From Rhodospirillaceae bacterium (GTDB lineage Bacteria; Pseudomonadota; Alphaproteobacteria; GCA-2731375), in assembly GCA_018667855.1 (NCBI GenBank), contig JABIRL010000002.1:2300-66299 (forward strand): 64,000 nt of DNA. The letters are read 5' to 3'. The stretch's first letter is position 1. The number at the start of each line of letters is the position of its first letter. A program made the translations under genes and the position numbers. Shown here one piece after another: positions 25,481 through 42,080 of the stretch. The notes under the pieces are model-generated. The model had not been told where the DNA came from, did not search any database, and saw only the letters and a list, made by a program, of their open reading frames with translations.

Positions 25481-28400
25481 TCAATAGTCGATGGTTTCGA
25501 TGTTCTGGAAGGCGATTTGCGTGCCGTCCTCCAGGGTGATGGTACCGGCGGCATCGTCGCTGAGGGTCTTGGTGCTGCCGTCGTCCGATGTCTCGCTGCC
25601 TGTTGTCAGGCTGACGGTCCAGCCGGAGCCGACCGACGAACTATCGGCATTTTGCAGGGTGATGCTATCGGTCCAGCCACCGGCCGCGCCGCCATCGATG
25701 ATGTCGTTACCATCGCCCTCGCCAACGATGAAGTTATCGCTGCCGGCGCCGCCCGTAAGGGTATCGACCCCGCCCAGACCCTGGAAGGTATCGTTGCCCG
25801 CGTTGCCGGTGAAGACATTGACGTCGCCGTTACCGACCAGCGTATCGGCATAGTCGGAGCCGATCAGATTTTCGATACTGGTCAGGGTATCGCCCGCCGC
25901 ATCACCGCCCGAAGTGGCGCCGGTGTTCAGGTTGACGTTGATGGCGGAGCCAGAGTCGGCATAAGAGCCTGTATCGTTGCCGGCACCGCCCAGCAGGATA
26001 TCGGCGCCCGCGCCGCCCTTCAGGGTATCATCGCCGTCATCACCCGAAAGCGTATCCGCGCCGGCATCGCCGTTCACCGTATCTGCACCCTCGCCACCCG
26101 ACAGGATATCGTCGGCGTCGCCGCCATTCAGGGTATCGTCCCCGGCATCGCCGTACAGGCGATCACTCCCGGCCGCGCCGGAGAGGGTGTCACTGCCCGC
26201 GCCGCCGGAGATGAAGTCCTCGCCGGTCGTGCCGGTATTGGTATCGTCGCCGGAGGTCAAAGTAGCCCGGTCGGTACCGGTGGCACCAGCGGCATACAGA
26301 CCGTCGATGGTAGTTTCCGGCAACTGACTGTCGTAAATCGCGACCTCGGAGATCTTGCCATCGAAGAAATCCGACCCACCGGTGTACGCGCCAACCGACA
26401 CAGCCGTGCTGCCGCCATCGATACCCTCGATGTTGTTGGAATCATCCGCCACCTTGGTGCCATCCAAATAGATCTGCAGACCATCGGCGCCGAAGGTCAC
26501 GGTCAACTGGTACCATGTACCGGCTGAGACAACATTTGTGGCAGTCAAGGTACCGCCGTCGGGGCCGCCCATGGCAACCACGATGTTGCTGCCATCACGA
26601 TCGATATAGAAATCACCAGTGTTGCCGCCGGCCGGATCCCGGCTGACCAAGGTACCAGTGCCCGTGACTGTGTCGGCATTGAACCACAGCTGGATCGTGC
26701 CGTTAGCCTGGTTCCAGGCGGCGGAGTCCGGTATCGCCACGTAGTCGTTGACACCGTCGAAATTATTGCCGGTATTATTGATGTTGGCGAAGGGATCCGT
26801 CGTGTCTAAGTAATCTGTATTATTGGTCCAGGTGCCGTCGCTGCCGCTGATCTGGTCCACGGCGGTGGAATTGGCATCGTCAAGGCGCCAGTAACCCACC
26901 GCGCCGGCGTCCACGACCTCGGCCTGATGGGTATCATCGAATTCAGCCAGATCGTTGACGGTGATCGGCTTGACTTCATCATAGGTCTTGCCGGTGGAAT
27001 CCGTGACCCGGATGGTGATGTTGTGGCTTTGCGTGGTTTCAAAGTCCAGCAACGATCCATCCGCCACGGTGATCTCGCCGGTATTGGCACTGATCGCGAA
27101 ACGGCCGCCGGCATTGTCCGTCAGACTGTAGGTGAAGGTCTCGCCACTGTCCGGATCGACGCCGGCAGCGGTGCCAACCACGGTGCCGTTGGAGGCGTTT
27201 TCATCCACGCCGTCCGCCGTCAGCGTGACGTCGTCCGGTGTATCGGCCACCGGATTGATGTTGACCTTGAAACTGCCCGAGGACTGCGCGGTGTCGGAGC
27301 CGTCCGTCGCCGTCGCGGTTACCGACAGATTGAAATTGGTATCCTGGTCGGGGGGCGGTGTCAGGGTCAGGTTATTCAGTTGGGCCGCCGTGAAGGTCCA
27401 GGAACCGTCGCCATTGTTGGTGCCGGCGGAGAACTTGGAACCCACCGGAACGCCGGAGACGACAACCCCAAGGCTTTCCGAGCCGTCCGTATCGGACAGG
27501 GCCGAGGACAGGCTCAACGAAATCGCCGTATCCTCGCTGCCGGTCACATCGTTGGCGCTCAATGTTGGTGCATCCGCCACCTGGGCGACGGTGACACCGA
27601 CAGTGCTGACGCTCTGCGTAGTGTCCGAACCGTCGGTCGCGGTGGCCGTCACGGTCAGGGAGAAATTGCTGGCATCGTCGCTGGGCGGCGTAATGGTCAG
27701 GTTGGAAAGCTGGGCCGACGTCAGGGTCCAGCTGCCATCCCCGTTGTCGGTGCCGGCTGAAAGGCTTCCGCCCGTCGGCACGCCCGAGATGACCACGGAC
27801 AGACTTTCCGAACTGTCAGCCAGGGACGAGGAGATGCTGAGCGAGATCGCGCTGTCCTCGTTGCCGGAGGCGGCGGACGTGCTCAGGTTGGGCGAATCTG
27901 CCACACCGGCAACTGCAACATCGAGGGTATCAACGGATTGTGCCGTCGAGGAACCATCGGTTGCCGTGGCCGTCACGGTCAGTTGGAAATTGCTGCTGTC
28001 GTTACTGGGGGGCGTCACGGACAGGCCCGACAGTTGGGCCGACGTAAGGGTCCAGCTGCCATCGCCATTATCGGTACCCGCGGACAGGGAGGCCCCCGTC
28101 GGTACACCGGAGATCACCACGGAAAGACTTTCCGAGCTGTCGGCCAGATCAGACGAGATGGAGAGAGCGATGGCGCTGTCCTCGTTGCCGGAACCTGCCG
28201 ATGTGCTCAGGGTTGGCGTATCGGCGACACCGTCCACGGTGACGGCCAGGGTCTGTACGCTGCTGGCGCTGCTGCGATCATCGCTGGCCGTGGCGGTCAC
28301 GGTCAGAGAGAAATCACTGCTGTCATTGCTGGCGGGCGTGATGGACAGGCCCGACAGTTGGGTTGATGTCAGGGTCCAGCTGCCGTCGCCATTGTCGGTA

Positions 28401-31400
28401 CCGGCGGACAGCGCGGCGCCCGTGGGGACACCGGATATCACGACAGACAGGTTCGTGCCGTCAACCAGGGATGAGGCGATATTGAGCGCGATGCCGCTGT
28501 CCTCGTTGCCGCTTGCGGCGGATGCCGACAGGCCGGGCGCCGAAACGTCGACAACTTCGACAACTTCGACAACGGTTTCCTCAACCGTCTCGACAACAGT
28601 TTCTTCAACCGCCTCGACAACAGTTTCCTCGACCGTCTCGACAACGGTCTCTTCAACCGTCGCCGTCCTGGCGGCGGAGGACCTGACGGCGCTCACCGCG
28701 GGTGCGGCCAGGGTCGTCGTGGTGGCCTCGACGGCCGCGTCCGCCGCCGTATCGGGCAGGCTTTCGCTCAGGGTATCGGTCAGACCATCGGTTGCTGTGT
28801 CGGCCAGGGGATCGCCCAGAATGGCGGCCTCTGCTGTTTCGGCGGCCTGTTCGACGACCACTTCGGTCTCGACCACCTCGACGGCCTCTTCCGCCGCGGC
28901 TTCTTCCGCCGCGCCGTCGGCGGCGGTGCCGCTGTTGCCGGACTTGGCCCGCGCCGCATCGGCGCCGGTGGCGCCTGAATCGGCGGCATTTTCCGCCGCC
29001 GCCGCGGTCGCGGCCTGCGCCTCGGACTCTGCCTGGGCCTGAGCCTGTGCTTGTGTCTGGCCGGTCGCGCCGGCTTCGATTGAGGCTTCAGCCGCGGTCA
29101 CCGTGGTCAGGTTACGAACCAGGTCGACCTGATTGGTCTCCGCCGTGGCATCGACCGTGACTTCGGCCGTTTCGATCACTTCACTTTCCGCACCATCGCG
29201 GCTGACTTCCACGTTCATGGCGAAAGCTTCCGACGCGAAGGCAGAAGCCGCGGGAATGGCAATGGCCAAGCCGGCCACCTGCATCACGGTCATGGACCAG
29301 GAACGGTCACCGTTGTCCGAACCTTCGGACAGCTGCACGCCCTCGGGCACACCGGTTATGGTGGTCTCGTAGGTGGAGCCATCGGTCGCGTCGGGGATCA
29401 GCGCTTCCAGATCCAGATTGATCACAATTTCGTCCGAGGCTGACACTTCGCCCGCCTCCGGGGCGACAACCGTGTCCTGCCAGCCACTTTCCATGGCCTG
29501 CTCAACTTCGTCGATGGTCATGGTTTGATCAGCGAATTCAAAGTTCTCGACGTTCCGCACCGTGTCCGTGGAACCGCCTTCACGCAGATCCTCGACCTCA
29601 AGGCCCCGTCGGCCCATGGAGACGTTGTAGTCGGAGGCATTGCCGTCGAACACCGCCGTGTCAACGCCCTGGCCGCCGTCCAGCTTGTCCCTGCCGGTGC
29701 CGCCGTCCAGCAAATCGTCGCTGTCGCCGCCTCTCAGATCGTCGTTGCCGGCGCCGCCGATCAGCGTATCGCCGTCGTCGCCGCCTCTCAACCTGTCCTT
29801 GCCGTCGCCGCCGATCAGAATGTCGGCGCCCGTGCCACCATCAAGGCGGTCATTACCGGTGCCACCATCGAGGGTGTCATCGCCCGTGCCGCCGGACAGT
29901 TTGTCGTTGCCGGTGCCGCCGTCGAGGGCGTCATTGCCCTCGCCACCCGACAATCTATCCCGGCCTTCACCGCCGGCAACAGTGTCGTCACCGGAACCGC
30001 CGTAAACTCTGTCATTGCCGGCGCCGCCGTCGAGGGTATCATCGCCCGATCCACCGCTAACGGTATCACGGCCTTCGCCGCCGGCCACGACGTCATCGCC
30101 GGTACCGCCATAGACCCTGTCGTTGCCTGTGCCGCCATCGATCGTATCGTTGCCGGTACCGCCGTACACCCGGTCGCTGCCGGTGCCGCCGTCGAGCGTA
30201 TCGTTGCCCTCGCCGCCGCTAACGGTATCGCGGCCCGAGCCGCCGGAGACGACGTCGTCGCCCGCGCCGCCGTATACACGGTCGCTGCCGGTGCCGCCGT
30301 CGATCGTATCGTTGCCCTCGCCACCGCTAACGGTATCACGGCCCTCACCGCCACTGATAGAATCGGCGCCGGCGCTGCCCACGATGGCATCACTATCGCC
30401 GCTGCCGGCGATGACATTGGTCACAACCGTGGGTGTTTCATTTTGTGCGGCGCCATTCGTGGATGAGGCCGGAGGTGAGCTCTCTGTCGGCGCCGGATCA
30501 GCCGGCGCGGCTTCCGATGCCGGGGCCTGCTCCACAGGCGCTTCCGCTTCAGCGGACGGTTCCGTGGCGTCAGGAGTCTCTATAGGTGCGGCCTGTTCGG
30601 CGGCCGGGGTTGCCTCGGCAACCGGATCGGCCGGCGCTTCGGCAGGTGTCGCAGCTTCGGCGGCCTGGCCGTTTGATTGGCCATTGCCATTGCCTTGACC
30701 GTTTGCCTGGCCATTACCTTGGCCGCTACCTTGACCATTGGTCTCGGCCGGCGCGGCTTCCGATGCCGGAGCCTGTTCCACAGGCGCTTCCGCTTCAGCG
30801 GACGGTTCCGTGGCGTCGGGCGTCTCTACAGGTGCGGCCTGTTCGGCGGCTGGAGTTTCCTCGGCAACCGGATCGGCCGGCGCTTCGGCAGGTGTCGCAG
30901 CTTCGGCGGCCTGGCCGTTTGATTGGCCATTGCCATTGCCTTGACCGTTTGCCTGGCCATTGCCTTGGCCGTTATTCTGACCATTGGCGTTGCCTTGACC
31001 GTTGTTTTCGGCGGGGGCGGATGCTTCGGAAGTCGGTTCCGTGGCGTCTACTTCCTCCACCGGCGCTTCGGCGGCCTGGCTATTTCCATTGCCATTGGCG
31101 TTCGCGTTCGCGTTGCCGTTGCCATTTCCGTTGCTATTGGCGTTCGCGTTGGCATTGCCGTTTTCCTGGCCATTCGCATTGGCATTTTCAGAGCTATTGC
31201 CGCTGGCATTGTTGCCATTGCCTTGTCCGTTGTTTTCGGCAGGGGCGGACACTTCGGAAGTCGGTTCCGTGGCGTCTACTTCCTCCACCAGCGCTTCGGC
31301 GGCCTGGCTATTTCCATTACCATTAGCGTTCGCGTTACCGTTGCCGTTATTACCATTGGCGTTAGCATTCGCGTTGCCGTTGGCATTTCCGTTGGCATTT

Positions 31401-32479
31401 CCGTTGCCATTGGCGTTCTCGTTGGCATTCGCGTTGGCGTTGCCATTTTCCTCGCCGTTGGAATTTCCGTTGCCGTTGTTGCCGTTGTTGCCATTGGCGT
31501 TCTCATTGGCATTCGCGTTGGCGTTGCCATTTTCCTCGCCGTTGGCATTTCCGTTGCCGTTGTTGCCATTGGCGTTCGCATTGGCGTTGGCGTTGCCATT
31601 TTCCTGGCCGTTGGCATTTCCGTTGCCGTTGTTGCCATTGTTGCCATTGGCGTTCTCATTGGCATTGGCATTGGCGTTGGCGTTGCCGTTTTCCTGGCCG
31701 TTGGCATTTCCGTTGCCGTTGTTGCCATTGGCGTTGGCGTTGGCGTTCGCGTTGGCATTGCCATTTTCCTGGCCGTTGGCATTAGCATTGCCATTGCCAA
31801 CCGTACCGTCAGCCTGCGGCGGAACCGGGCCACCGTTGAAATCAGTCTCTACGGTATTCTGCGCCGCAACGGATTGATCACCAGCAGTGGAGTCAACGGC
31901 TGCTTCGGTTTCAGTGAAATCGGTGACGTCCGGCGTGTATTCCGTTTCAATGTTCTGATCGCTCTCCGCAACCGCGGGCTCCGCCATGGCATCGGATGAG
32001 CTGGCCTCTGTATCGGCTTCCGCTTCCGCGGCCTCTTGTTCACCCGCCTGCGCGGCGTTATTCGATTGACCGGCTTGGGCCGGGCGGGCCTGTGCGGCCG
32101 TCGGCTGGTTCGCCGCCGTCGCATCCACACCCTGCGCCTGCGGCGCCTGGGCAGCGGGCGTCTGGCCGGTGGCCGCCGCATCCGTTGCTTCATTGCCCTC
32201 GGGATCGGCTTCTTGATCCTCGACGTCGGCGTCGGGATCTACCTCAGCACTGTCGGCCTGCTGCTCAATGTCGGCGCGGTCGCTGACCTGGGCGCTTTCC
32301 GATGCTTCGCCCGCACTGGCGACGGTTTGCCAGAATGTTCGACTGGCTTCATCGTCGCGGACCGGACCGTTGTCAGGCGACTGCCCAGCCTCGGCGTTTT
32401 CAGTTTGGACGACTTCTTGTTCTTCGGACGCGTCGCCCTTGCGGAGGATTTGCCGGATAATGTTTGGCATTCTAGCCAT
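25481..32479 (-). CDS. Giant T1SS-secreted RTX surface protein/adhesin (2332 aa): acidic and Asn-rich low-complexity N-terminus, internal RTX block, 4 Ig-like repeats, cadherin-like domain, LamG-like domain, C-terminal RTX block
   Basis: GGxGxDxxx nonapeptides at about 29640-30415 and 25660-26270; [13 protein letters not shown] repeats; [36 protein letters not shown] cadherin motif; [34 protein letters not shown] LamG motif; no N-terminal signal peptide; T1SS adjacent. Confidence 0.9.
27242..28540 (-). repeat. Four tandem Ig-like repeats (107-110 aa, 433 aa total)
   Basis: Unit [17 protein letters not shown].[37 protein letters not shown]...LTVTATA.D....VAD, read four times. Confidence 0.9.
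28550..28660 (-). repeat. VEET/VVET octapeptide tandem repeat
   Basis: [37 protein letters not shown]; about 24-nt period. Confidence 0.85.
29640..30415 (-). repeat. Internal RTX Ca2+-binding nonapeptide array
   Basis: More than 20 GGxGxDxxx units, e.g. [27 protein letters not shown]. Confidence 0.9.
30501..30970 (-). repeat. Two near-identical copies of a 246-bp (82-aa) Ala/Glu/Pro-rich unit
   Basis: gccggcgcggcttccgatgcc begins at 30501 and 30747; encodes [55 protein letters not shown]. Confidence 0.88.
31075..31798 (-). repeat. Asn/Gly/Ala low-complexity repeats
   Basis: (Q/E)[10 protein letters not shown](A/E)NANGNNGNGNANG-type units; main block about 31310-31798, second block about 31075-31235. 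Confidence 0.92.
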
Positions 32480-32888: not shown

Positions 32889-34607
32889 ATGTCGAAACCG
32901 CAGAGCGACAATGCGCCGCTGCCACGCCTGCGCCCCATGCGTGGATTGCGTATGGAGATGCTTGCCGTCTCCTCTGCCATGAATCTGTTGTCGCTGGCCT
33001 TGCCGATCGTGATCCTGCAAGTCTATGACCGGGTTATTCCGAATGCCGCGAACCAGACCCTGGTGGTCTTTGTCTTTGCCCTGGGCGCGGTGTTGATCAT
33101 CGACGCCATTTTGAGCTACGGCCGTTCCTCGGTGACCGGCTGGGTCGGCGCCCGAACCCAGCATTATCTTGCCTGCGCCGCATTGAGACGCCTGTTTAAA
33201 ACCGATCTGCGCAGTTTCGAGGCAGTGGCCCCCGGCGTCCATATGCAGCGGCTCCGTGCCGTCGACGGGATCAAGACGTTTTATGCCGGCCAAGGTTTAT
33301 TACTTATGGTCGACCTGCCGTTCGCGGCGGTCTTTCTGCTATTGATCGGGTTGATTGCCGGCAAGCTGGTGTTCGTGCCGGCCGCCATCCTGGTGTTGCT
33401 CTCCATTTTTGCGCTGTTCAGCGGGCGGGCGCTGTCCGAATCCCTTAAGAGCCGCGCCATCGGCGATGAACGGCGGCACAATTTCATGATCGAAGTGCTT
33501 TCGAATATCCATACCGTCAAGGCGTTGGGCATGGAGGCCCTTATGGTGCGGCGCCATGAACGCCTGCAAAGCAGCTCGGCCGAAGCCAGCTATCAAGTCA
33601 GCCTGGCCGGCGCCACGGCTCGTAATCTAGGCATGACGTTGTCCCAAGTCACCGCCGTCGCCGTGGGCGCGTTTGGCAGCACCTTGGTGATGGACGGCAC
33701 CTTGACCATGGGCGGCCTTGCGGCCAGCACCATGCTGGCCAGCCGCGCGGCCCAGCCTATGTTGCGATCGCTTGGCATCTGGACCCAGTTTCAGAATGCC
33801 CAGGTCGCCCGCCGGCAGTTCGACGAAATGTTCGCCCTGCCCCAGGAGGCGCGGACGGATGACTCCACCGAGGTCTCGTTCGAGGATCCGATCATCATCA
33901 AGGACCTGAACTTTGGCTACACCGAGGACAAGGAGCCAGTTTATCGCGATCTCGATCTGCGTATCGAATACGGTGAAATCATCGGCATCGCGGGCGCCAA
34001 CGGCTCCGGCAAGTCGACCTTCCTGGGTCTGATGATGGGCGCCCTGGTCCCGGCCGAAGGTCAAGGCCACGTCATGATCGGTGATACCGATATCTGGCGC
34101 ACCGATGCCGCGGCGCTGCGGCGCCACGTCTGCTATCTGCCGCAAAACGCCGTGCTGTTCCAAGGTACGATCATGGACAATCTGACCATGTTCGGCGGCC
34201 AGCATTACGTCGACCGTGCCATGTATTTTGCCGACCGGTTGGGTTTGCACGAAGCGATCGGCAAAATGCCCAAGGGCTATGACACCCCCGTGGAATATCG
34301 CAAGACGACCCGCATACCGGGCGGCGTTCGCCAACGCATCGCCTTGGTCAGGGCGCTGACCATGACGGAGGAGCCCCGCCTGATCCTGTTTGACGAGGCC
34401 TATGTCCAGCTCGACCGCAGCAGTGATGAAAAACTCCACACCCTGCTGCGTGAATATGTCGGCAAATGCACCATGGTCATTGTCAGCCATCGGCCTTCGT
34501 ACATGAATTTGGCTGATCGTGTGCTGGTCGTCCGCAATGGCGAATTGATACCCGCGAGCGGCGGCGCCAGGGAATCAATTGAAAAACTACAAAAGGAATA
34601 TGCCTGA
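32889..34607 (+). CDS. Type I secretion ABC transporter (TMD-NBD, no N-terminal peptidase domain)
   Basis: NLLSLALPIVILQVYDRVIP, DLPF, GANGSGKST, signature IPGGVRQRIAL, LILFDEA, VSHR. Confidence 0.88.
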   Translation: MSKPQSDNAPLPRLRPMRGLRMEMLAVSSAMNLLSLALPIVILQVYDRVIPNAANQTLVVFVFALGAVLIIDAILSYGRSSVTGWVGARTQHYLACAALRRLFKTDLRSFEAVAPGVHMQRLRAVDGIKTFYAGQGLLLMVDLPFAAVFLLLIGLIAGKLVFVPAAILVLLSIFALFSGRALSESLKSRAIGDERRHNFMIEVLSNIHTVKALGMEALMVRRHERLQSSSAEASYQVSLAGATARNLGMTLSQVTAVAVGAFGSTLVMDGTLTMGGLAASTMLASRAAQPMLRSLGIWTQFQNAQVARRQFDEMFALPQEARTDDSTEVSFEDPIIIKDLNFGYTEDKEPVYRDLDLRIEYGEIIGIAGANGSGKSTFLGLMMGALVPAEGQGHVMIGDTDIWRTDAAALRRHVCYLPQNAVLFQGTIMDNLTMFGGQHYVDRAMYFADRLGLHEAIGKMPKGYDTPVEYRKTTRIPGGVRQRIALVRALTMTEEPRLILFDEAYVQLDRSSDEKLHTLLREYVGKCTMVIVSHRPSYMNLADRVLVVRNGELIPASGGARESIEKLQKEYA

Positions 34608-36778
34608 TGTCGGCGGCGGGTCAAAATACCCTGGATCGCCGGCCGCAGTGGCTGGACGGCATGAATGTGCTGGAGGCATTTCGCCGCGGCGGCGCCGGCG
34701 CCTTGTCCGATCTCGGCGCTTGTCTGTTGCGCCTGCTCGAGGCTTTGGAATGGAACGGCAAGGAGCGGCATTTGGCCGAGGCCGTGCCGCATTTCGTGCC
34801 CAACCTCGACCTCAAGGGGTTTCGTGAAACCCTGTCAAACCTGAACCTGAGCACGCGGCCCCTGCGTGTCCGACATGACCGCATCAATGCGAACCTGATG
34901 CCCTGCCTGTTTCTGCCCGACAATCCCGCCGCCCCGATACGCATCGTTGTCAGCGCCGACGAGGATGGATACCGGATTTACGACGGCGCCTATCGCATGT
35001 TCCGGCAATCGTCGGGTAAAGGGCTGCGCGGCACCGCCTACGTGGTCAAGGATATTGATCGGGCAGAGCGGGAAAAACAGCAAAAGAACAGATCCTGGGC
35101 CTCGCCATTGGCTGGCCGTTTTCGCACCCTGATCAGCCAGGTGATCCTGTTGACCTTGCTGTTCAACATCCTCAGCCTGGCCATGCCGCTATTCATGATG
35201 TCGATTTATGACAAGGTCATACCGTCGGCTTCGGTCAATCAATTGTTATTCCTGGTGTCCGGCGTGGCGCTGGCGATCTCTCTTGAAACCGGATTACGCC
35301 GGCTGCGGATCGGGGCCATGGCCTATCTGGCCGGACGCATCGACTATTTGGTGGGGCGTTCGGCATTCGAGCGGATCCTGTTTTTGCCCCTTTCCATGTT
35401 GGAGCATGAGCCCCTTGGCGCCCAATTGGCGCATTTGCAGGAATTTGAATCGCTGCGGGAATTTTTCGCCGGTCCCTTGGGCGAAGCATTGTTGGATCTG
35501 CCGTTCGTCGTGATCTACCTAGTTGTGATTGCGGCCCTTGGCGGGTGGTTGGTTTTGGTGCCCATATGCGCCGGGTTGGCTTACGTTCTCGCGGGCTTGG
35601 CCATTACCGCCATTACCAAGCATTTCGCAGCCGCCGGCAACGAACACAAAGCAGAACAGCAAAAGTTTCTGGTCCAGGCGATATCCGGCATGCGGGCCAT
35701 CAAATTCGCCGGTTCGGAGAAAGTCTGGCTCGAACGCTATCGTGAACTGTCGGCCGCAAGTGCCTTGCGGGAATTCGTCCTGACCCGGCACAGCAACGCC
35801 GTACAAACGGTTTCGCGGGTCATAACCCTTGCTTCCGGCATCGCCTTGATGGGGTTCGGCGCCCTGGGGGTTATGGATGACGGCCTATCCATCGGCGCGC
35901 TAATCGCTTCCATGGCCCTGGTCTGGCGGGCATTGGCGCCACTACAATCGGGTTTCATGACCCTGAACCGGCTGGCGCAGATAAAATCCAGCCTGCGGCA
36001 GATCAATCACCTGATGCGCCTGCCGACAGAGCGCATTCCCGGTCAAGTGCCGTTCAAGCGAGCCTTCAAGGGACGGATTGTTTTCAACAGTGTCGCCCAT
36101 CGCTTTTCAGCCGACGCCGAATTGGCCTTATTAGGTGTCACCTTTTCCATAGAACCGGGCGAGGTGGTGGCGATCACCGGGCCCAATGGCTCGGGCAAGT
36201 CGACCCTGATCAACATTACTGCCGGTCTGTACCGCCCCACCATGGGGGCAATATTGATCGACGGCATCGATGTGCGCCAGGTCGATCCGATTGATTTACG
36301 GCAAAGCGTCGCACTGGCCCCACAGGCGACGGAGCTGACATACGGGACGGTGGCCCAAAATCTGAGGTTGGCGGAGCCCACGGCCAGCGACGAGGACCTG
36401 ATTGAAGCGGCCAAGCTGGCACGGGTCTACGATGGCATCATGCAATTGCCGGAGCAGTTCGAGACACGCTTGAATGAACATGTCCTGACCGAATTGACAG
36501 AGGGCTTCAAACAGAAATTGTCCCTCGCCCGCGCCTATCTGAAAAAATCCCCGATCATGCTGTTCGATGAACCGGGGCAGGCTTTGGACGCGGAAGGTGA
36601 CCAGGCTTTTCTGGCAGCGGTGCAGAAATTGCGCGGCAGCAGCACCATTATCATTGTCACCCATCGGCCGAGCCATATGGAAATCGCCGACCGGCTGTTG
36701 GTCCTGGATGCCGGCCGGTTGCAGTACAACGGCCCGCCCCAGGAAGCCATGGACCGATTGTCCGGAGGCGGACAATGA
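34607..36778 (+). CDS. Type I secretion ABC transporter with N-terminal C39-like domain
   Basis: SDLGACLLRLL N-terminal domain, NILSLAMPLFMMSIYDKV, GPNGSGKST, signature LTEGFKQKLSLARA, MLFDEP, VTHR. Confidence 0.88.
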   Translation: MSAAGQNTLDRRPQWLDGMNVLEAFRRGGAGALSDLGACLLRLLEALEWNGKERHLAEAVPHFVPNLDLKGFRETLSNLNLSTRPLRVRHDRINANLMPCLFLPDNPAAPIRIVVSADEDGYRIYDGAYRMFRQSSGKGLRGTAYVVKDIDRAEREKQQKNRSWASPLAGRFRTLISQVILLTLLFNILSLAMPLFMMSIYDKVIPSASVNQLLFLVSGVALAISLETGLRRLRIGAMAYLAGRIDYLVGRSAFERILFLPLSMLEHEPLGAQLAHLQEFESLREFFAGPLGEALLDLPFVVIYLVVIAALGGWLVLVPICAGLAYVLAGLAITAITKHFAAAGNEHKAEQQKFLVQAISGMRAIKFAGSEKVWLERYRELSAASALREFVLTRHSNAVQTVSRVITLASGIALMGFGALGVMDDGLSIGALIASMALVWRALAPLQSGFMTLNRLAQIKSSLRQINHLMRLPTERIPGQVPFKRAFKGRIVFNSVAHRFSADAELALLGVTFSIEPGEVVAITGPNGSGKSTLINITAGLYRPTMGAILIDGIDVRQVDPIDLRQSVALAPQATELTYGTVAQNLRLAEPTASDEDLIEAAKLARVYDGIMQLPEQFETRLNEHVLTELTEGFKQKLSLARAYLKKSPIMLFDEPGQALDAEGDQAFLAAVQKLRGSSTIIIVTHRPSHMEIADRLLVLDAGRLQYNGPPQEAMDRLSGGGQ

Positions 36779-38139
36779 AACGACAGGATGATATCACCCA
36801 CGCTGCCGGCATGGGCCGGTCCCGTGCAGTACGGGGCGAACAGCTGCGCTTTCTCTCAAAGCCGGAGCTGTTGGAGGAAGTTGGACCACCCCGGTTTCTC
36901 AGATTGGTTTTGTTCTTCCTTGCCCTCACGGTGTTTGGCTCCGGCGCCTGGGCTTCAATAGCGAAAATCAAGGAAACCACCAAGGCCATGGGTGAAGTGG
37001 TTCCCATCGGATCCGTACATGCGATCCAGCATCTGGAGGGCGGCATTATTGCCAGTATCATGGTGTCCGAGGGTGAGTTGGTCGAACAAGGACAGATTCT
37101 GGTCAAGCTCGATCCGACACCGGTTCTAGCCGACCTTGAAGTGATCCGCATTCGACGCGCCGGGTTGCAGCTAAAGGCCGAGAGACTACGCGCCTTCGCC
37201 ACGGGAGAACCGGCTAGATTTCCCAAAGTGGCGGCCCGTTTCACCCATATGGTCTCCGACCAAAAGGCCATACTGGCGCAGAACAGACGGGCGCAGAACA
37301 AGCAGCAGCGCGTCCTGGAGCTTAAGCAGGCGCAACGCAAGGTCGAATTGTCCGTCTTGCGGAAAGAGGCGACGAAACTGCGACGGGAAGTGGCAATCCT
37401 GGTCAAACAGAAAACCATGCAAGAAAGATTGCTGGCCGAAAAACTCGTCTCCAATCTGGTCTACTTCAACACTTTGCGGGAATTCAACACCATCGCCGGT
37501 GAACTGGATGAAGTCGTCGAAAAGGCTCAACGGGCCCGTCGGGCCATCGCCGAGGCGGGCGCGAAAATCGGCGAGATGAATGCCGGCATGCGCGACAAGG
37601 CGCTGGATGAAATGGGCGGCGTACGGGCAGAGTTGACAGAGGTGGAGCAGTCCATCGTGCAGGCCGAGGACAGGGCCCGGCGGTTGGAGATCATGGCACC
37701 CTTGCGCGGCATTGTGCAAGAACTGGCGGTCACCACCGTCGGCAGCGTCATCGCGCCGGGAGCGCCGTTGGCCAAGGTGGTACCGGTGGAGGACGAACTG
37801 ATCGTCGAAGCGCAAATTTCGCCGATCGATGTTGGCCACGTGCAGGTTGGAAAGAAGGCAAAAGTGAAGATCACGACCTTCGATTTTGCCCGTTTCGGCG
37901 CTATCGACGGCGAGGTGGAAAAGATTTCCCCGACCACATTCAAGGATCAGGACGGTACCGTCTATTACAAAGCGGATGTTCGACTGTCGAAAAACTATGT
38001 CGGCGACAAGCCCGGGCGCAATTTGATCCTGCCGGGCATGGTGGCCGAAGTCGATATTCTGGCGGGCGAACGCACCGTGCTGCGTTATCTGCTGCGGCCG
38101 GTCTATCAGTCGCTTGATAGCGCCATGACGGAACGCTGA
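36775..38139 (+). CDS. HlyD-family T1SS membrane fusion protein
   Basis: IQHLEGGII..I.V.EG..V..GQ.L..LD, I.APLRGIVQ, P.DVGHV.VG..A.VKITTFDFARFGAI.G.V..ISP, PGMVAEVDI..GER..L.YLL.P. Confidence 0.93.
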   Translation: MKRQDDITHAAGMGRSRAVRGEQLRFLSKPELLEEVGPPRFLRLVLFFLALTVFGSGAWASIAKIKETTKAMGEVVPIGSVHAIQHLEGGIIASIMVSEGELVEQGQILVKLDPTPVLADLEVIRIRRAGLQLKAERLRAFATGEPARFPKVAARFTHMVSDQKAILAQNRRAQNKQQRVLELKQAQRKVELSVLRKEATKLRREVAILVKQKTMQERLLAEKLVSNLVYFNTLREFNTIAGELDEVVEKAQRARRAIAEAGAKIGEMNAGMRDKALDEMGGVRAELTEVEQSIVQAEDRARRLEIMAPLRGIVQELAVTTVGSVIAPGAPLAKVVPVEDELIVEAQISPIDVGHVQVGKKAKVKITTFDFARFGAIDGEVEKISPTTFKDQDGTVYYKADVRLSKNYVGDKPGRNLILPGMVAEVDILAGERTVLRYLLRPVYQSLDSAMTER

Positions 38140-38155
38140 GGTAGGCCGGCAGAGT

Positions 38156-41071
38156 ATGTACAGTTTCATGGCAAACATGGTGATAAAAGGCGCCGCGCCG
38201 CGCATTGGCAGAAAACTGGCAATCGGATTTCTGGCCGCGGGTTTTCTGAGCGCTTGCGCCGTTACGCCGGAACCCATCGTCGAGGCGGAACGTGCAAACC
38301 GTGTCGTCGCGGATCTTGACATTATCCGCAATGGGCAGTTCAAGCCAACGCAGCCGATCTCTTTATATCATGCCATGGCCCGCGCCGTGGCCTTCAACCT
38401 GCAACATAATGTACGGCAAATTGAACGGGATATCGCGCAGCTGGAGCTGGATCAGGCGAATAAAGAGGGTTATCCGGACGTGGAAGGCAGTGCCGCCTAT
38501 TCCAGGGACGACGCAGTAACCTCCACAGGCACTGATACGAACATCCGCTCGGGCAGCTTCGGCGGCACCTGGAATGTGCTGGACCTGGGCGTCAGCTATG
38601 CCAGGGCGCAACAAAGCGCCGACCGCGTGCTGATTGCCGAGGAGCGCCGGCGCAAGGCTTTGCAGGACATAATCCGCAACGTTCGCCTGGCCTATTGGCG
38701 ATCCGTCGGCGCGCAACAGTTGATGACCCGAATGGTAGCGATTGAACACGAGTTCAGCGCCGCGTTGTCGGAAAGTCGACGACTGGAAGTCAACAGTATA
38801 GAGACCAAACGCCGGACCGTCGGCTTTCGCCGTGGTCTGATCGATACCGTGCGACAGATCATTGCGGCACGGAAGGACTATGGCCGGGCCAAGTTTGAGT
38901 TCGCACAGCTAATTAACATTCAGCCAGGCGTCAGATTCACGCTGCAACCGCCCGAAACCATGCAGGGCATTCCGGCGCTGCCCATGGCGGTCGAGAAGCT
39001 GGAGGCTTTTGCCCTGGAGCAGCGGCCCGAACTGCGGGTCGAGGATTACAACGAACGGATCACCGAATGGGAATCCCGGGAAGCACTTTTCGGTATGTTC
39101 CCCGGTCTGGATCTTGATCTGACCCAAAACTTCAGTTCCGACAAGGGCCTGGTGAACACGACCTGGTCGTCCGTCGGACCCACATTGGGCATGAACCTCT
39201 TCCGTCTGTTCTCGGGTCCCCTACGTATGCAAACCGCCGAGTTGCGCGGTGAGATGGCACGCCGTCAGCGACTGGCCCTTTCCGTTGGCGTGTTGGCCCA
39301 GGTTCACATCGCCTATCACGAGTTTCATGAGGCCAGCTACCAATTCCGCCTGGCGCGGCAAATCTCCCGATCCGATCGGGAACTGAGCAAACTTGCGGTA
39401 TTGGAACGCGATATCACCCAAGGCAATCTATTGGACACTATTGACGTGGCGGCGCGGCAGCTGCGCTCGGAAGTTCAACAGCACCAAGCCTATGTGGAGC
39501 TGCGCCGGTCTCACGGCAACATTCTGCATGCCCTCGGCCTCGACGTCATTGGCAACGATATCCCCTTGAATGATGTTGATCGTCTGCGGACCGCAATCCG
39601 TCAAACGGTGTCGAAGTGGGAGTATCTCACGGAAGAGGACGATCCCAATGACGACGGCACGATTGAAGAACTAGTCGGACAGGTATTGGCGGATGTGCGC
39701 CGGGAATCCGTGATGCCCGTGAAGAGCAAAACTTCAGAGCAGTCCAATATGATGGCGGCAGTTGATTTTGGATTGGCCGACAGCGACCTGAAAGATGTCC
39801 CAGATGCCGCCATCCCCAAGACAACCATGGCGACGGCTGAAACGGATGTCGACCGCAAGGCTGCATTCGATGATCAGTTCGCGGAAGTCCTGACAAGACT
39901 GTCGAAAAACGACCCGAATGAAGAGGCGCCAATGGATCTGGTCCAACCCGCGGCGGCAACATTGGCTGAACTGGATCTATTAGGTGTGTTCGAACCTGAA
40001 CCGAAGCAGGAACTGGGCTTGGATCCGAACCTGTCCGCCGAGCACCTGGATCTCGGTGCCATCGAATATTCAGAAACGCCGCTTATTTCACCGCGCACGA
40101 CAAATTCCACAGCCATGGAGTTGTCGCTGCTGGATGTGGCGCCTCCACTATCCGATGCACCACTCATTGCGCAACCGGACTGGCAAGACTTACCGCCTGA
40201 GCCCGCCCATAAAGGTTCGCGAGAAACCTATGACGCACAGTTCGGTGCGTTTTCCGAGTACCCGCGTGCTCAGGCCCTGCTGGCGGTTTTGCGCGATCTG
40301 CAAATTCCACTGGCCGAGGCAAAGGGCTTCCGAATTTTGAAAAAACGGGATTCGAACCGCAAACAACTGTTTCATGTCCGGCTTGGCTCGTTCCTGAAAA
40401 AATCGGCCGCCTTGCAAGTCTGTAAAGGCTTTAAGGTCCATGGAAAACGTTGCGTCGCCGTGCGCAAGATTGCGGCCACATCGGATGATTTCGAATTTGC
40501 ACCGCACATCGATGCAGGCGAACCGATCACGGAAGCGAAACCCGATCCTACTCCCGGCGCCGTCTCTTCGGACGCGATCTTCATGCCTGAGGCGCCGGCG
40601 GCTTCCGAACAAACGGTGGCGGAGGTCTCGCCAGACCTTGAAAATCATCAACTTGAAAATCACAATGGACAAATTGCTGCCCAGCCGCTGCCGCCACGGC
40701 CCGCGGAGAAGCGCTGGCTGCCCCGTTACGACACACAGTTTGGCGCCTTTTCCGAATACTCCCGTGCCCAGGCATTGCTGGACAGCCTTCAGCAACTACG
40801 GATACCCCACGGCGAATATCAAGATTTCCGCATTGTGACGAAGACATCACCGGGCAAACAGACCCAGTATCACGTCACGTTCGGCTCGTACCTGGGCTGG
40901 TCAGCGGCGGCAAAAGCCTGCAACGGCTTCAAGGCGCAAGGCAAAGGTTGCATCGTTGTACGCCACAAAAGGTCGGAGGCCGCCGTTGTCTCCAACTGCC
41001 ATACCGCCGACAGCTGTGATTTGCCAGACACGATCAGCCTGTATGAACGCCGGCCGCTTTTGACGTTCTAA
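38156..41071 (+). CDS. TolC-family outer membrane lipoprotein with acidic linker and two C-terminal SPOR-like domains (971 aa)
   Basis: Lipobox FLSAC; ISLYHAMARAVAFNL, WNVLDLGVSY.RA.Q, ALEQRPELR, AQVHIAY in the TolC part; two YD.QFGAFSEY.RAQALL...HV.(L/F)GS....AA...C.GFK..GK.C..V units at 40229-40468 and 40727-40969. Confidence 0.85.
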   Translation: MYSFMANMVIKGAAPRIGRKLAIGFLAAGFLSACAVTPEPIVEAERANRVVADLDIIRNGQFKPTQPISLYHAMARAVAFNLQHNVRQIERDIAQLELDQANKEGYPDVEGSAAYSRDDAVTSTGTDTNIRSGSFGGTWNVLDLGVSYARAQQSADRVLIAEERRRKALQDIIRNVRLAYWRSVGAQQLMTRMVAIEHEFSAALSESRRLEVNSIETKRRTVGFRRGLIDTVRQIIAARKDYGRAKFEFAQLINIQPGVRFTLQPPETMQGIPALPMAVEKLEAFALEQRPELRVEDYNERITEWESREALFGMFPGLDLDLTQNFSSDKGLVNTTWSSVGPTLGMNLFRLFSGPLRMQTAELRGEMARRQRLALSVGVLAQVHIAYHEFHEASYQFRLARQISRSDRELSKLAVLERDITQGNLLDTIDVAARQLRSEVQQHQAYVELRRSHGNILHALGLDVIGNDIPLNDVDRLRTAIRQTVSKWEYLTEEDDPNDDGTIEELVGQVLADVRRESVMPVKSKTSEQSNMMAAVDFGLADSDLKDVPDAAIPKTTMATAETDVDRKAAFDDQFAEVLTRLSKNDPNEEAPMDLVQPAAATLAELDLLGVFEPEPKQELGLDPNLSAEHLDLGAIEYSETPLISPRTTNSTAMELSLLDVAPPLSDAPLIAQPDWQDLPPEPAHKGSRETYDAQFGAFSEYPRAQALLAVLRDLQIPLAEAKGFRILKKRDSNRKQLFHVRLGSFLKKSAALQVCKGFKVHGKRCVAVRKIAATSDDFEFAPHIDAGEPITEAKPDPTPGAVSSDAIFMPEAPAASEQTVAEVSPDLENHQLENHNGQIAAQPLPPRPAEKRWLPRYDTQFGAFSEYSRAQALLDSLQQLRIPHGEYQDFRIVTKTSPGKQTQYHVTFGSYLGWSAAAKACNGFKAQGKGCIVVRHKRSEAAVVSNCHTADSCDLPDTISLYERRPLLTF

Positions 41072-41089
41072 AGTGAGACCGGCAAACTG

Positions 41090-41869
41090 CTATTTCTTTT
41101 TGCCTGCCGGTTTTTCCGGTGCGGGCTCGGCCGCTTCCGTGGTTCGCGCGGCGGCGGTCTGACGTTGCGCCATCGGCGTTAGATTGTTGAGCGATTGCAG
41201 ATGAACGTAACAAAGTTCGAGTTCATCCGTTCGCGCCATCTCGGCCAGAGTCTCGCCCGGAAGTGCCTTCAGCTTGTCGCGATTGATGGTTTGAAAACCA
41301 GCCAGCGCCGCCGATTGCCCGTCCGGCAATTGAAATCTGGCCTGTGCCGCCTCCAGCAGCTCAAGTTCCCGCAACCGATTGGCAAACTGCATGGTGCGGT
41401 TAAACTGCGCTTGATACTCGCGGGTAAATTTCAACACGTTTTCCAGATATTGGGTACGCGCGCCCTCTGAATCGAACAGACGCTCGCCTTTACCCTCCTG
41501 ATTGAATCCATTGAACTCCTCGTCGATGCACAGCGTAAATGTGCCGCCGTCCTCGGAGCGTGAAAATACGAACGGGTACCGGCGCAAAAAGGCGGGCACA
41601 TACTTGCCCTGCCAGGCATTATCCTCACCGACAAAAGAATTCTCGCCATCGCGCATGCCGAGAATTACGGATGGAAAAATGGAATCGCCTTCGCCCGCAA
41701 AAATGATGGCGAATTCCGTGGCCGCCGGGATGAATTCGGCGGCCAGCAGAGGCACCGAATTCAAGCCGCGCGCATAAGAATAGTCGGCGCCGGTCTTGAC
41801 CGACCATTCGCCGTGGCGCTCGGTTGAAATCGGCACCGCATCTTCATAAATCATGAGTTGCTTGGGCAT
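41090..41869 (-). CDS. SapC-family protein
   Basis: Y..A..LN.VPLLAAEF..AA.EFAI.F, P..ILG.R.GEN.FV, W.G.YVPAFLRRYPF, LCID, RLFD.EG, L.G...I.R.KL..L; start trimmed to ATG 41869. Confidence 0.82.
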   Translation of the reverse strand: MPKQLMIYEDAVPISTERHGEWSVKTGADYSYARGLNSVPLLAAEFIPAATEFAIIFAGEGDSIFPSVILGMRDGENSFVGEDNAWQGKYVPAFLRRYPFVFSRSEDGGTFTLCIDEEFNGFNQEGKGERLFDSEGARTQYLENVLKFTREYQAQFNRTMQFANRLRELELLEAAQARFQLPDGQSAALAGFQTINRDKLKALPGETLAEMARTDELELCYVHLQSLNNLTPMAQRQTAAARTTEAAEPAPEKPAGKKK

Positions 41870-42080
41870 TCGCATTAATCTCCAAAACGTCAACCTGTTA
41901 GAAGCAAACGGGCCATTGCCCATGTCCTGCGATCTCGAATGACGATCATACGGTTGGGGTATATTTAGGCGAAACTAAGTTGAAATCCGAGTCCAATTTA
42001 ACTCATGCGAGCAGGATAGCAACGGCCGAAGATCGCACCTTTAACCCGGCTGATCAGTCTGCCTGTTTTCCGCATGGCCA

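What the first reader, a model, noticed from the sequence alone, without database searches (positions are those of the whole stretch)
30670..31798. Prion-like Asn/Gly/Ala tract at the N-terminus of the secreted protein
About 160 contiguous residues (31310-31798) are almost entirely N, G and A. The ENGNANANA core occurs five times, and shorter N/Q/G blocks follow down to about 30670. This is seen directly. N/Q/G-rich tracts drive amyloid or phase-separated assembly in other proteins (curli, fungal prion domains). Strict alternation such as NANANA is also what beta-helical or ice/mineral-binding surfaces look like. Inference: it may be a self-assembling matrix domain, a flexible tether or a cell-surface retention element. 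This is not a standard RTX-adhesin feature.
Basis: partly seen in the sequence, partly recalled or inferred. Interest (0 to 1): 0.65.

Follow-up and report, generated by a model that had tools for sequence, protein, structure and literature searches.

The report
Asparagine-rich disordered stalk of RTX protein
The asparagine/glycine/alanine tract is real and is one block of a 690-residue floppy, acidic front end found on a small, single-genus family of secreted calcium-binding surface proteins of marine bacteria; it is most likely a flexible spacer, and nothing found here shows it to be a prion-like or ice-binding domain.

Summary
Observation confirmed. Residues 228-391 (window 31307-31798, minus strand) of a 2332-aa RTX/cadherin/LamG protein are 91% N/G/A, with Asn at every second position. 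Shorter N/G/A and N/G/Q blocks follow down to 30665.

The tract belongs to a larger pattern: a conserved N-terminal motif (MARMP...FWQ...AGE), an acidic region, then uncharged N/G blocks alternating with acidic Pro/Glu/Ala/Thr spacers, then the first RTX block.

This architecture recurs in orthologues and shorter paralogues in 10 of 21 genomes of the same genus and in 0 of 20 outside it. Composition and position are conserved; sequence, register and length are not. The orthologous loci also keep the divergent type 1 secretion operon.

- AlphaFold2 gives pLDDT 35-43.
- Every block falls on the disordered side of the charge-hydropathy boundary.
- Repeat units are irregular (23-48 aa).
- There are no Thr, aromatic or hydrophobic residues.
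- The only sequence look-alike in the PDB is the disordered NANP repeat of the malaria circumsporozoite protein.

Best reading (0.5): a disordered, length-evolvable polar spacer within a block-copolymer-like stalk. Self-assembly, channel threading and mineral binding remain untested rivals. Interest is moderate: an undescribed module, not a new kind of system.

The parts
25481..32479 (-). CDS of the 2332-aa RTX / cadherin / LamG protein, the presumed type 1 secretion substrate
   Evidence: ORF. Pfam hits: HemolysinCabind x13, Cadherin at aa 1758-1841, Laminin_G_3 at aa 1908-2058. Orthologues share 64-73% identity in the C-terminal half.
32300..32479 (-). Conserved N-terminal motif (aa 1-60): [15 protein letters not shown]...[13 protein letters not shown]. 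It holds most of the few basic residues of the first 690 aa (K+R = 8 there).
   Evidence: The alignment with orthologues keeps M1 A2 R3 P5 R9 L12 F49 W50 Q51 A56 G57 E58 invariant. An AGGTGA Shine-Dalgarno-like motif lies just upstream of the ATG.
31799..32299 (-). Acidic A/Q/E/D/T-rich region (aa 61-227), ending in [10 protein letters not shown], which corresponds to the PPG-type motif that precedes the N/G tract in relatives
   Evidence: NCPR is -0.22 and the region lies below the disorder boundary. The PPG motif is seen in relatives.
31307..31798 (-). N/G/A tract 1 (aa 228-391, 164 aa), built of five units of 23-48 aa, each starting ENGNANANA
   Evidence: TRF finds periods of 69 and 90 bp at 89-91% identity.
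31235..31306 (-). Acidic spacer a1 (aa 392-415): [24 protein letters not shown]
   Evidence: It is part of the 228-bp tandem duplication.
31079..31234 (-). N/G/A tract 2 (aa 416-467)
31010..31078 (-). Acidic spacer a2 (aa 468-490)
30911..31009 (-). N/G/Q block 3 (aa 491-523)
30740..30910 (-). Pro/Glu/Ala/Thr acidic spacer b1 (aa 524-580), first copy of the 246-bp duplication
   Evidence: (246-bp period, 2 copies, 94%)
30665..30739 (-). N/G/Q block 4 (aa 581-605)
30410..30664 (-). Pro/Glu/Ala/Thr spacer b2 plus a Ser/Pro-rich end (aa 606-690)
29585..30409 (-). First RTX block (about 24 GGxGxD nonapeptides, aa 691-965), directly after the disordered region
32889..41071 (+). Divergent type 1 secretion operon: ABC (572 aa), ABC (723 aa), HlyD-type fusion protein (454 aa), TolC-type channel with SPOR domains (971 aa)
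   Evidence: Pfam and NCBIfam T1SS LssB/HlyB-type hits. The same arrangement sits upstream of the orthologues in L007 and L083.

Best explanation
The tract is an intrinsically disordered, uncharged, very hydrophilic polymer segment. It is the longest of four Asn/Gly blocks that alternate with acidic Pro/Glu/Ala/Thr spacers. Together these form a roughly 690-residue, block-copolymer-like N-terminal stalk on a type 1 secreted RTX surface protein. Type 1 secretion exports substrates C-terminus first, so this stalk leaves the cell last. It lies between a conserved N-terminal motif, which is the likely cell-proximal or machinery-contacting end, and the calcium-folded RTX, Ig-like, cadherin and LamG parts. 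I propose that it works as a flexible, extensible spacer or tether whose bulk properties are what selection maintains: no charge, small side chains, strong hydration. Its exact sequence is not maintained. Its length changes by in-frame tandem duplication and deletion of 69-90-bp and 228-246-bp units. Shown here: the composition, the alternating architecture, conservation of composition and position across a genus-specific family, linkage to the secretion operon, and the lack of a predicted fold. Inferred: secretion, disorder in vivo, and the spacer/tether role.
For: (1) Composition. The tract is 164 aa with no hydrophobic, aromatic, basic, Pro, Thr or Asp residue. FCR is 0.06 and mean hydropathy is 0.31 against a disorder boundary of 0.435. 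All ten blocks of aa 1-690 fall on the disordered side, and net charge is -96.

(2) Fold prediction. AF2 mean pLDDT is 35 for aa 1-720 and 43 for the tract alone, with no residue above 70.

(3) Family conservation. Orthologues and paralogues share the MAR(M/I)P...FWQ...AGE N-terminus (P0002, P0003, L007, L082, L083, L085-L092). All carry N/G/(A/Q) tracts of about 44 to 330 aa starting roughly 230-310 aa from the N-terminus, followed by spacer-plus-short-N/G modules. Sequence, register and length differ in each.

(4) Distribution. The module is in 10 of 21 genomes of the genus and 0 of 20 outside it.

(5) Not a pure DNA microsatellite. Asn codons are AAT 33: AAC 47 in the tract against 34: 48 in the rest of the gene. 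The period-6 DNA match is only 61%. Only 5 of 81 adjacent hexamers are identical in DNA. Unit comparisons show 61 synonymous against 14 amino-acid differences.

(6) Secretion context. A T1SS operon is adjacent and syntenic in orthologues, and the C-terminal ...IAFQNIE(T/S)I.Y end is conserved.

(7) Structural look-alikes. The only PDB sequence look-alikes are circumsporozoite-protein NANP repeats, which are described as intrinsically disordered (PMC6179375).

(8) Precedent. LapA-type adhesins have an unstructured Gly-rich segment after the N-terminal retention module (bioRxiv 10.1101/198937).
Against: Low pLDDT from single-sequence AF2 and charge-hydropathy plots are weak evidence for disorder in a repeat with no alignable homologues.

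AF2 does place short strands only in this tract.

Short paralogues of about 900-1400 aa consist mostly of this N-terminal region plus RTX repeats (L082, L086, L088, L090). That suggests the region is more than a passive spacer for adhesive domains.

A plain spacer would not obviously need Asn-Gly, the most deamidation-prone dipeptide, which is kept throughout the family.

No expression, secretion or localisation data exist.
Confidence: 0.5

Rival explanations
1. Self-assembling matrix element. The Asn/Gly/Ala blocks act as hydrogen-bonding 'stickers' (Asn ladders, polar zippers or beta-hairpin stacks) and the acidic Pro-rich blocks act as soluble spacers. Secreted molecules would then gel, phase-separate or form amyloid-like fibres on the cell surface, possibly helped by Ca2+ bridging of the regularly spaced Glu residues.
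For: There are 42 N+Q in an 80-aa window, which meets the classical Q/N-rich criterion of at least 30 in 80 (my own knowledge: Michelitsch and Weissman 2000). The period-2 pattern puts Asn on one face and Gly/Ala on the other. AF2 puts its only secondary structure, 6-8-residue strands, in this tract. The sticker/spacer alternation is conserved. Short paralogues are mostly this region.
Against: There are no aromatic or hydrophobic residues, and Gly makes up 21%. Glu occurs every 12-15 residues. Unit lengths are irregular and the register is not conserved. pLDDT is below 50 everywhere. No curlin or other amyloid family hit was found. The protein must stay soluble and unfolded in the cytoplasm to be exported.
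Confidence: 0.17
2. Channel-threading segment of a retained adhesin. The neutral, thin N/G/A chain of 164 aa (up to about 55 nm when extended) would lie inside the electronegative TolC/HlyD conduit. The N-terminal motif would stay on the cell side, anchoring the protein as LapA is anchored in LapE.
For: The N-terminal motif is conserved in all paralogues, even though the secretion signal is C-terminal. The first N/G tract starts at a similar distance from the N-terminus in all members. LapA threads an unstructured segment, flanked by Gly-rich motifs, through its TolC-like pore.
Against: No folded plug is predicted (pLDDT about 40 for aa 1-60). There is no LapG-type protease in the genome and no TAAG site. 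Tract length varies from about 44 to 330 aa across members, so it does not match a fixed channel length.
Confidence: 0.1
3. Neutral by-product. This would be a low-complexity region that expands and contracts by replication slippage or unequal recombination and is merely tolerated in a disordered linker.
For: There are nested tandem duplications at 82-94% identity. Length and sequence differ in every relative. A 1174-bp deletion allele or assembly variant exists in a sister lineage. Contigs break in the tract in several MAGs.
Against: The same composition sits at the same position in all family members and paralogues across at least 10 species. Synonymous variation is at the gene's equilibrium rather than in microsatellite-like identity. 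No other tract of this composition exists in the genome; the only other Asn-rich tract is the Ser/Asn-rich tail of a FecR-domain protein.
Confidence: 0.12
4. Cation-, mineral- or particle-binding surface. The pairing of N/G repeats with acidic blocks resembles the NG-repeat and acidic regions of the mollusc shell-matrix proteins nacrein, N66 and pearlin. It could bind Ca2+, carbonate or metal-oxide particles, or polysaccharide, in the water column.
For: NG-repeat domains next to acidic regions are reported to modulate CaCO3 crystal growth (PMC7677314, PMC3439604). The region has a net charge of -96 and 60 NG dipeptides in the first 700 aa. Relatives come from marine low-oxygen water columns (record titles).
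Against: This is pure analogy with no homology. Nothing in the locus points to mineralisation. The protein already carries dedicated ligand-binding domains (cadherin, LamG).
Confidence: 0.07
5. Assembly artefact. The repeat number or arrangement would be mis-assembled in this 371-contig draft.
For: This is a draft assembly. Related MAG contigs often end in this region. Reads could not be examined.
Against: All 55-mers in the tract are unique and the longest exact repeat is 42 bp. The reading frame is intact over 2332 aa. Independent assemblies of relatives show the same kind of tract.
Confidence: 0.03

Closest known systems
LapA / MpIBP-type RTX adhesins (N-terminal retention module followed by an unstructured Gly-rich linker)
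   Same: Large T1SS substrate with C-terminal RTX repeats and secretion signal, Ig-like/cadherin extender and a lectin-like domain. The N-terminus is conserved and is followed by unstructured sequence rich in small residues.
   Different: No folded retention domain is predicted, there is no LapG protease in the genome and no TAAG site. The disordered part is about 630 aa rather than about 80, is Asn-rich, and alternates with acidic blocks. There is a second, internal RTX block. Two ABC proteins are present.
Central NANP repeat region of the Plasmodium circumsporozoite protein
   Same: It is the only sequence look-alike in the PDB (E = 1.5e-15, compositional). It is an Asn/Ala-rich short-period repeat in a surface protein and is described as intrinsically disordered (PMC6179375).
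   Different: There is no homology. The bacterial tract has no proline, has period 2 rather than 4, contains Gly and Glu, and has a different domain context.
NG-repeat / Gly-Xaa-Asn repeat domains of the mollusc shell-matrix proteins nacrein, N66 and pearlin (N16)
   Same: Asn-Gly repeats lie beside short acidic regions in secreted extracellular proteins, and repeat length varies between species.
   Different: The phylum and protein scaffold are unrelated (carbonic anhydrase, or a Cys-rich small protein). The mollusc repeats are 10-20 aa in pearlins against 164 aa here. No link to mineralisation is evident here.
Q/N-rich prion-forming domains of yeast and functional amyloids (curli CsgA)
   Same: Asn content is very high and meets the Q/N-rich criterion. 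Charge is depleted, and Gly is present.
   Different: There are no Tyr/Phe or other hydrophobic residues. Glu is spaced regularly. No curlin repeat signature or Pfam hit was found. The protein is extracellular and exported unfolded by T1SS. No aggregation data exist.
Asn/Gly low-complexity tails of other bacterial extracytoplasmic proteins (ECF sigma/anti-sigma fusions, SH3_3 and PRC-barrel proteins)
   Same: They have the same GNGNANGQ-type composition, 100-160 aa long, at the outer ends of exported or membrane-anchored proteins. A FecR-domain protein in this same genome has a Ser/Asn/Gly tail.
   Different: The protein families are unrelated and the tracts are usually C-terminal. There is no alternation with acidic Pro-rich spacers and no T1SS context. 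The resemblance is convergent composition.

Membership tests
Q/N-rich prion-like domain | At least 30 Gln+Asn within 80 consecutive residues (criterion recalled from Michelitsch and Weissman 2000) | tested here: met
   42 N+Q in the 80-aa window starting at aa 262
Q/N-rich prion-like domain | Interspersed aromatic/hydrophobic residues that favour prion formation (from my knowledge of the PAPA work) | tested here: not met
   F, W, Y, I, L, V and M are all zero in aa 228-391. There are 10 Glu and 34 Ala.
Q/N-rich prion-like domain | Self-propagating amyloid formation | not testable with these tools
   Needs ThT, EM and seeding assays. PLAAC and ArchCandy were not available.
Beta-solenoid ice-binding / antifreeze repeat | Constant coil length over many turns | tested here: not met
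   Units are 25, 30, 23, 28 and 48 aa. Relatives have different registers.
Beta-solenoid ice-binding / antifreeze repeat | Flat array of Thr (T-x-T or T-x-N) or an equivalent ice-binding motif | tested here: not met
   No Thr in the tract
Beta-solenoid ice-binding / antifreeze repeat | Confidently predicted or solved beta-solenoid fold | tested here: inconclusive
   AF2 single-sequence pLDDT is 43 with short strands only. PDB sequence hits are only CSP repeats.
LapA-type retained RTX adhesin | C-terminal RTX repeats plus adjacent T1SS genes | tested here: met
LapA-type retained RTX adhesin | Folded N-terminal retention module | tested here: inconclusive
   A conserved 60-aa motif exists, but AF2 pLDDT is about 40 and there is no Pfam hit.
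LapA-type retained RTX adhesin | LapG (Peptidase_C93) protease and a TAAG cleavage site | tested here: not met
   No PF06035 match in the 94%-complete genome. No TAAG in aa 1-700.
Curli-type functional amyloid | Curlin repeat signature | tested here: not met
   Pfam scan of the whole protein at E <= 0.01 gave only RTX, Laminin_G_3 and Cadherin.
Mollusc NG-repeat shell-matrix proteins | NG repeat next to acidic regions | tested here: met
   34 NG dipeptides in the tract, flanked by spacers with NCPR of -0.25 to -0.29. This is a resemblance only.
Mollusc NG-repeat shell-matrix proteins | Carbonic-anhydrase or conserved-Cys scaffold; homology | tested here: not met
   No such Pfam domain. There is no Cys in the N-terminal region.

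The most novel reading that the evidence does not exclude
In this reading the N/G-plus-acidic block-copolymer region is itself the payload. After export into Ca2+-rich, mildly alkaline seawater, the Asn blocks associate and the roughly 60 unprotected Asn-Gly sites deamidate within days. Uncharged blocks would thereby become poly-anionic Asp/isoAsp blocks. This would give a bacterial extracellular coat or gel whose adhesive or cation-binding properties change on a built-in chemical timer. The short paralogues that consist almost only of this region plus RTX repeats would be the pure matrix form.
Probability: 0.1. Interest if true: 0.75.

Novelty: new variant of a known kind. Interest (0 to 1): 0.4.

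Why it matters
RTX adhesins are usually described as a folded retention plug, Ig-like extenders, ligand-binding domains and RTX repeats. This protein belongs to a genus-restricted family of marine alphaproteobacterial T1SS substrates with a different front end: a conserved short N-terminal motif followed by hundreds of residues of alternating uncharged Asn/Gly blocks and acidic Pro-rich blocks.

If the region is a spacer, it is an unusually clear case of selection on composition rather than sequence in a bacterial surface protein. It is also a source of length variation, and of assembly breaks, in metagenome-assembled genomes.

If it self-associates or ages by deamidation, it would be a new kind of bacterial extracellular material. 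Either way the practical value is modest until the protein is expressed and localised.

Tried and rejected
- **Reads.** I used k-mer uniqueness instead.
- **Metagenome scan with aa 1-227 as a single protein.** No relatives were found. A second scan with an alignment of the N-terminal motif found 6 loci.
- **First genome search over relatives.** It failed with a machine error. A later call with the N-terminal 690 aa worked.
- **Word-indexed homologue search on aa 1-700.** Only two proteins were returned. Low complexity limits this tool.
- **phmmer of the tract against 1.84 billion representatives.** It gave only 20 compositional look-alikes in unrelated proteins. These are not homologues, and HMMER's bias correction makes the count a lower bound.
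- **AF2, twice.** Both models were low-confidence, so I ran no fold search, because matches would be meaningless.
- **Ice-binding / beta-helix reading.** Rejected for lack of Thr, irregular units and no structural match.
- **N-glycosylation sequons.** None (N-x-S/T) in the tract.
- **LapG/LapD-type release.** No LapG in the genome.
- **Overlapping antisense and alternative-frame ORFs in 30586-31999.** Dismissed as shadows of the repeat, because only the 2332-aa frame is conserved in relatives.
- **Literature search for 'asparagine-rich' together with RTX / type I secretion.** No paper held all terms.


Full report
**What is there**

The region lies in one long ORF on the minus strand, 25481-32479, encoding 2332 aa. 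Pfam finds 13 stretches of RTX nonapeptides, a cadherin domain (aa 1758-1841) and a Laminin_G_3 domain (aa 1908-2058). GGxGxD motifs form two blocks, at aa ~691-965 and ~2085-2250.

A type 1 secretion operon runs divergently upstream (32889-41071). It encodes two ABC permease/ATPases (572 and 723 aa, best NCBIfam matches LssB/HlyB-type T1SS), a HlyD-type fusion protein, and a TolC-type channel carrying SPOR domains. A SapC gene follows. The protein is therefore a presumed T1SS substrate. This is an inference from domain content and gene neighbourhood.

- Residues 228-391 (window 31798-31307) are 164 aa: N 80, G 35, A 34, E 10, Q 3, S 2.
- No other residue type occurs.
- Asn sits at every second position; phase is broken only by NN or G(Q/E)E elements.
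- ENGNANANA occurs five times here and once at aa 439.
- A second N/G/A block (aa 416-467) and two N/G/Q blocks (aa 491-523, 581-605) follow, ending at window 30665.
- In a six-frame scan of the whole 5.3-Mb assembly, only one other ORF reaches even 12 Asn in 40 residues. It is a FecR-domain protein with a Ser/Asn/Gly tail on contig C195.

**The start codon is right**

Orthologues begin MAR(M/I)P.(I/F)(I/L)R..L and share FWQ(T/S)...AGE about 50 residues in. An AGGTGA motif precedes the ATG. The tract is therefore inside the protein, 227 residues from the N-terminus, not at the terminus.

**The larger pattern**

| Segment | Residues | Character |
|---|---|---|
| Conserved motif | 1-60 | Holds most of the few basic residues of the first 690 aa (K+R = 8) |
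| Acidic region | 61-227 | NCPR -0.22 |
| Four N/G blocks | within 228-605 | Uncharged, NCPR 0 to -0.06, no Pro |
| Spacers between and after the blocks | within 392-690 | Acidic Pro/Glu/Ala/Thr, NCPR -0.18 to -0.29, up to 18% Pro |

Net charge over aa 1-690 is -96.

The array was built by nested tandem duplications:
- 69-90-bp units at 89-91% identity inside tract 1;
- a 228-bp unit, two copies, 82%;
- a 246-bp unit, two copies, 94%.

**Not a simple DNA microsatellite**

- TRF's period-6 match is only 61%.
- Only 5 of 81 adjacent hexamers are identical in DNA, although 26 encode the same dipeptide.
- Asn codon use in the tract (AAT 33: AAC 47) equals that of the rest of the gene (34: 48).
- Comparisons among the five units show 61 synonymous against 14 amino-acid differences over 253 aligned codons. 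Alignment of low-complexity sequence inflates this ratio.

This fits constraint on amino-acid composition on top of occasional unit duplication.

**Relatives**

The C-terminal half finds orthologues at 64-73% identity in marine Rhodospirillaceae/Alphaproteobacteria MAGs from the Black Sea, Saanich Inlet and elsewhere. Using the N-terminal 690 aa, matches occur in 10 of 21 genomes of the same genus and in 0 of 20 genomes of other genera of the family and class. Several genomes hold two or more paralogues. A motif-based metagenome scan found six more loci.

Every member inspected has three features in common:
- the conserved N-terminus;
- an acidic region, often ending in a (T)PPG(L/Q)-type motif;
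- a long N/G/(A/Q) tract of about 44 to 330 aa starting roughly 230-310 aa from the N-terminus, followed by acidic-spacer-plus-short-N/G modules.

Examples are [26 protein letters not shown]... in L082 and (GSE.QGNGNGQGNGQGNGNAQASTEPEPVV.EPVVEEPVVE)x7 in L090. Composition and position are conserved; sequence, register and length are not.

Orthologues in L007 and L083 keep the divergent T1SS operon, with 73-84% identity for the ABC and HlyD proteins.

Shorter paralogues of about 900-1400 aa (L082, L086, L088, L090) are mostly this N-terminal region plus RTX repeats or a coiled-coil-like segment, and lack the Ig/cadherin/LamG parts.

**Structure**

AF2 without an alignment gives mean pLDDT 35 for aa 1-720 and 43 for the tract alone, with no residue above 70. 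The only secondary structure it draws is a set of 6-8-residue strands inside the tract.

All blocks lie on the natively unfolded side of the Uversky charge-hydropathy boundary; I applied the formula from my own knowledge.

The only similar sequences in the PDB are circumsporozoite-protein NANP repeats (best E = 1.5e-15). Their authors describe these as intrinsically disordered (PMC6179375). The match is compositional, not homologous.

Repeat units are 23-48 aa, there is no Thr, and the register differs in each relative. This argues against a regular beta-solenoid or ice-binding surface.

By composition the tract meets the Q/N-rich criterion, with 42 N+Q in 80 aa. However, it has no aromatic or hydrophobic residue, is 21% Gly, and has a Glu every 12-15 residues. 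These features disfavour in-register amyloid stacking (my inference).

**How rare is it**

phmmer of aa 221-400 against 1.84 billion representative proteins returned 20 hits at E <= 0.001. The bacterial ones are unrelated proteins that carry GNGNANGQ-type tails of 100-160 aa:
- ECF sigma/anti-sigma fusions;
- an SH3_3 protein;
- a PRC-barrel protein;
- a signal-peptide protein with (ANANGN.H)n.

Several of these carry signal-peptide or membrane-anchor features, so the composition recurs convergently in varied proteins. I found no description of it in T1SS substrates. Earlier notes of this scan list similar N/G tracts in other secreted proteins; I treat these as leads only.

**Mechanism**

The best-supported reading is a disordered, uncharged, strongly hydrated spacer block within a block-copolymer-like stalk. 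T1SS exports substrates C-terminus first, so this stalk is the last part to leave the cell. It would link the conserved N-terminal motif to the calcium-folded body. LapA offers a precedent: an unstructured, Gly-flanked segment follows its retention module and threads the TolC-like pore (bioRxiv 10.1101/198937).

This protein does not meet the LapA definition. No folded plug is predicted, there is no LapG in the genome and there is no TAAG site.

Rivals that remain open are:
- sticker-spacer self-assembly;
- residence of the neutral tract in the secretion conduit;
- cation, mineral or particle binding, by analogy with NG-repeat shell proteins (PMC7677314, PMC3439604);
- neutral drift.

One chemical point deserves testing. 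The first 700 aa hold 60 Asn-Gly dipeptides, 34 of them in the tract. In unstructured peptides Asn-Gly deamidates with a half-life of days (PMC4682632). An exported, disordered tract would therefore gradually become acidic.

**Reliability of the assembly**

The longest exact repeat in the tract is 42 bp and all 55-mers are unique. The 246-bp duplication shares a 103-bp exact stretch. The contig runs through the region with an intact frame.

Related MAG contigs often end in the equivalent region (L003-L005, L089, L091). In a sister lineage, two assemblies (L079, L080) differ from a third (L083, otherwise 99.5-100% identical) by a 1174-bp deletion with an 11-bp overlap. The deletion removes most of the N/G region and shifts the frame.

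The kind of tract is therefore secure.

**Verdict**

The tract is a real feature, conserved across the family in composition and position. It is best explained as a disordered polar spacer in an undescribed N-terminal module of a genus-specific T1SS protein family. The prion-like label is compositional only, and the ice-binding and beta-helix ideas are unsupported. Interest is moderate.

Noticed in passing
Own genome contig C195:7431-9086 (minus strand; outside the window): The only other Asn-rich tract in the genome. It is a FecR-domain protein with a signal/anchor-like N-terminus and a roughly 190-aa C-terminal (SNSNAGG/SSSS)n Ser/Asn/Gly/Ala tail. It resembles the N/G tails on FecR-like and anti-sigma proteins found by phmmer (P0004, P0009).
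   Followed up: partly
L079 and L080 compared with L083 (metagenome contigs of a sister lineage): Two assemblies carry a 1174-bp deletion with an 11-bp overlap at the junction. It removes most of the N/G-plus-spacer region and shifts the frame, truncating the protein at 320 aa. Flanks are 99.5-100% identical to the intact L083. It is either a real null/deletion allele or a shared assembly error.
   Followed up: partly
L082/L085, L086, L088, L090 (same-genus paralogues): These are short family members of about 900-1400 aa. They consist of the conserved N-terminus, very long N/G tracts (up to about 330 aa in L088) and RTX repeats, without Ig, cadherin or LamG domains. Several genomes hold 2-6 paralogues.
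   Followed up: partly
Window 31799-31850 (aa ~210-227), and the equivalent sites in L082, L083, L086, L090, L092: A semi-conserved (T)PPG(L/Q)...G(P)G motif directly precedes the first N/G tract in most family members. It reads [10 protein letters not shown] in the window protein.
   Followed up: no
Window 28566-28661 (aa ~1273-1304): A second low-complexity linker, (ETVV/EETVV)n, is encoded by a 12/24/48-bp tandem repeat between the degenerate Ig-like unit and the four Ig-like repeats. Relatives carry N/G blocks in this mid-protein linker instead.
   Followed up: no
L003, L004, L005, L089, L091: MAG contigs of relatives end inside or next to the N/G region, so this family is systematically truncated in short-read assemblies and probably under-annotated.
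   Followed up: no
Window 32889-41923: The T1SS operon has two different ABC proteins, both below the NCBIfam T1SS cut-offs. It also has a TolC-type channel fused to SPOR domains, and a SapC-family gene on the opposite strand. Other findings of this scan already flagged these.
   Followed up: partly
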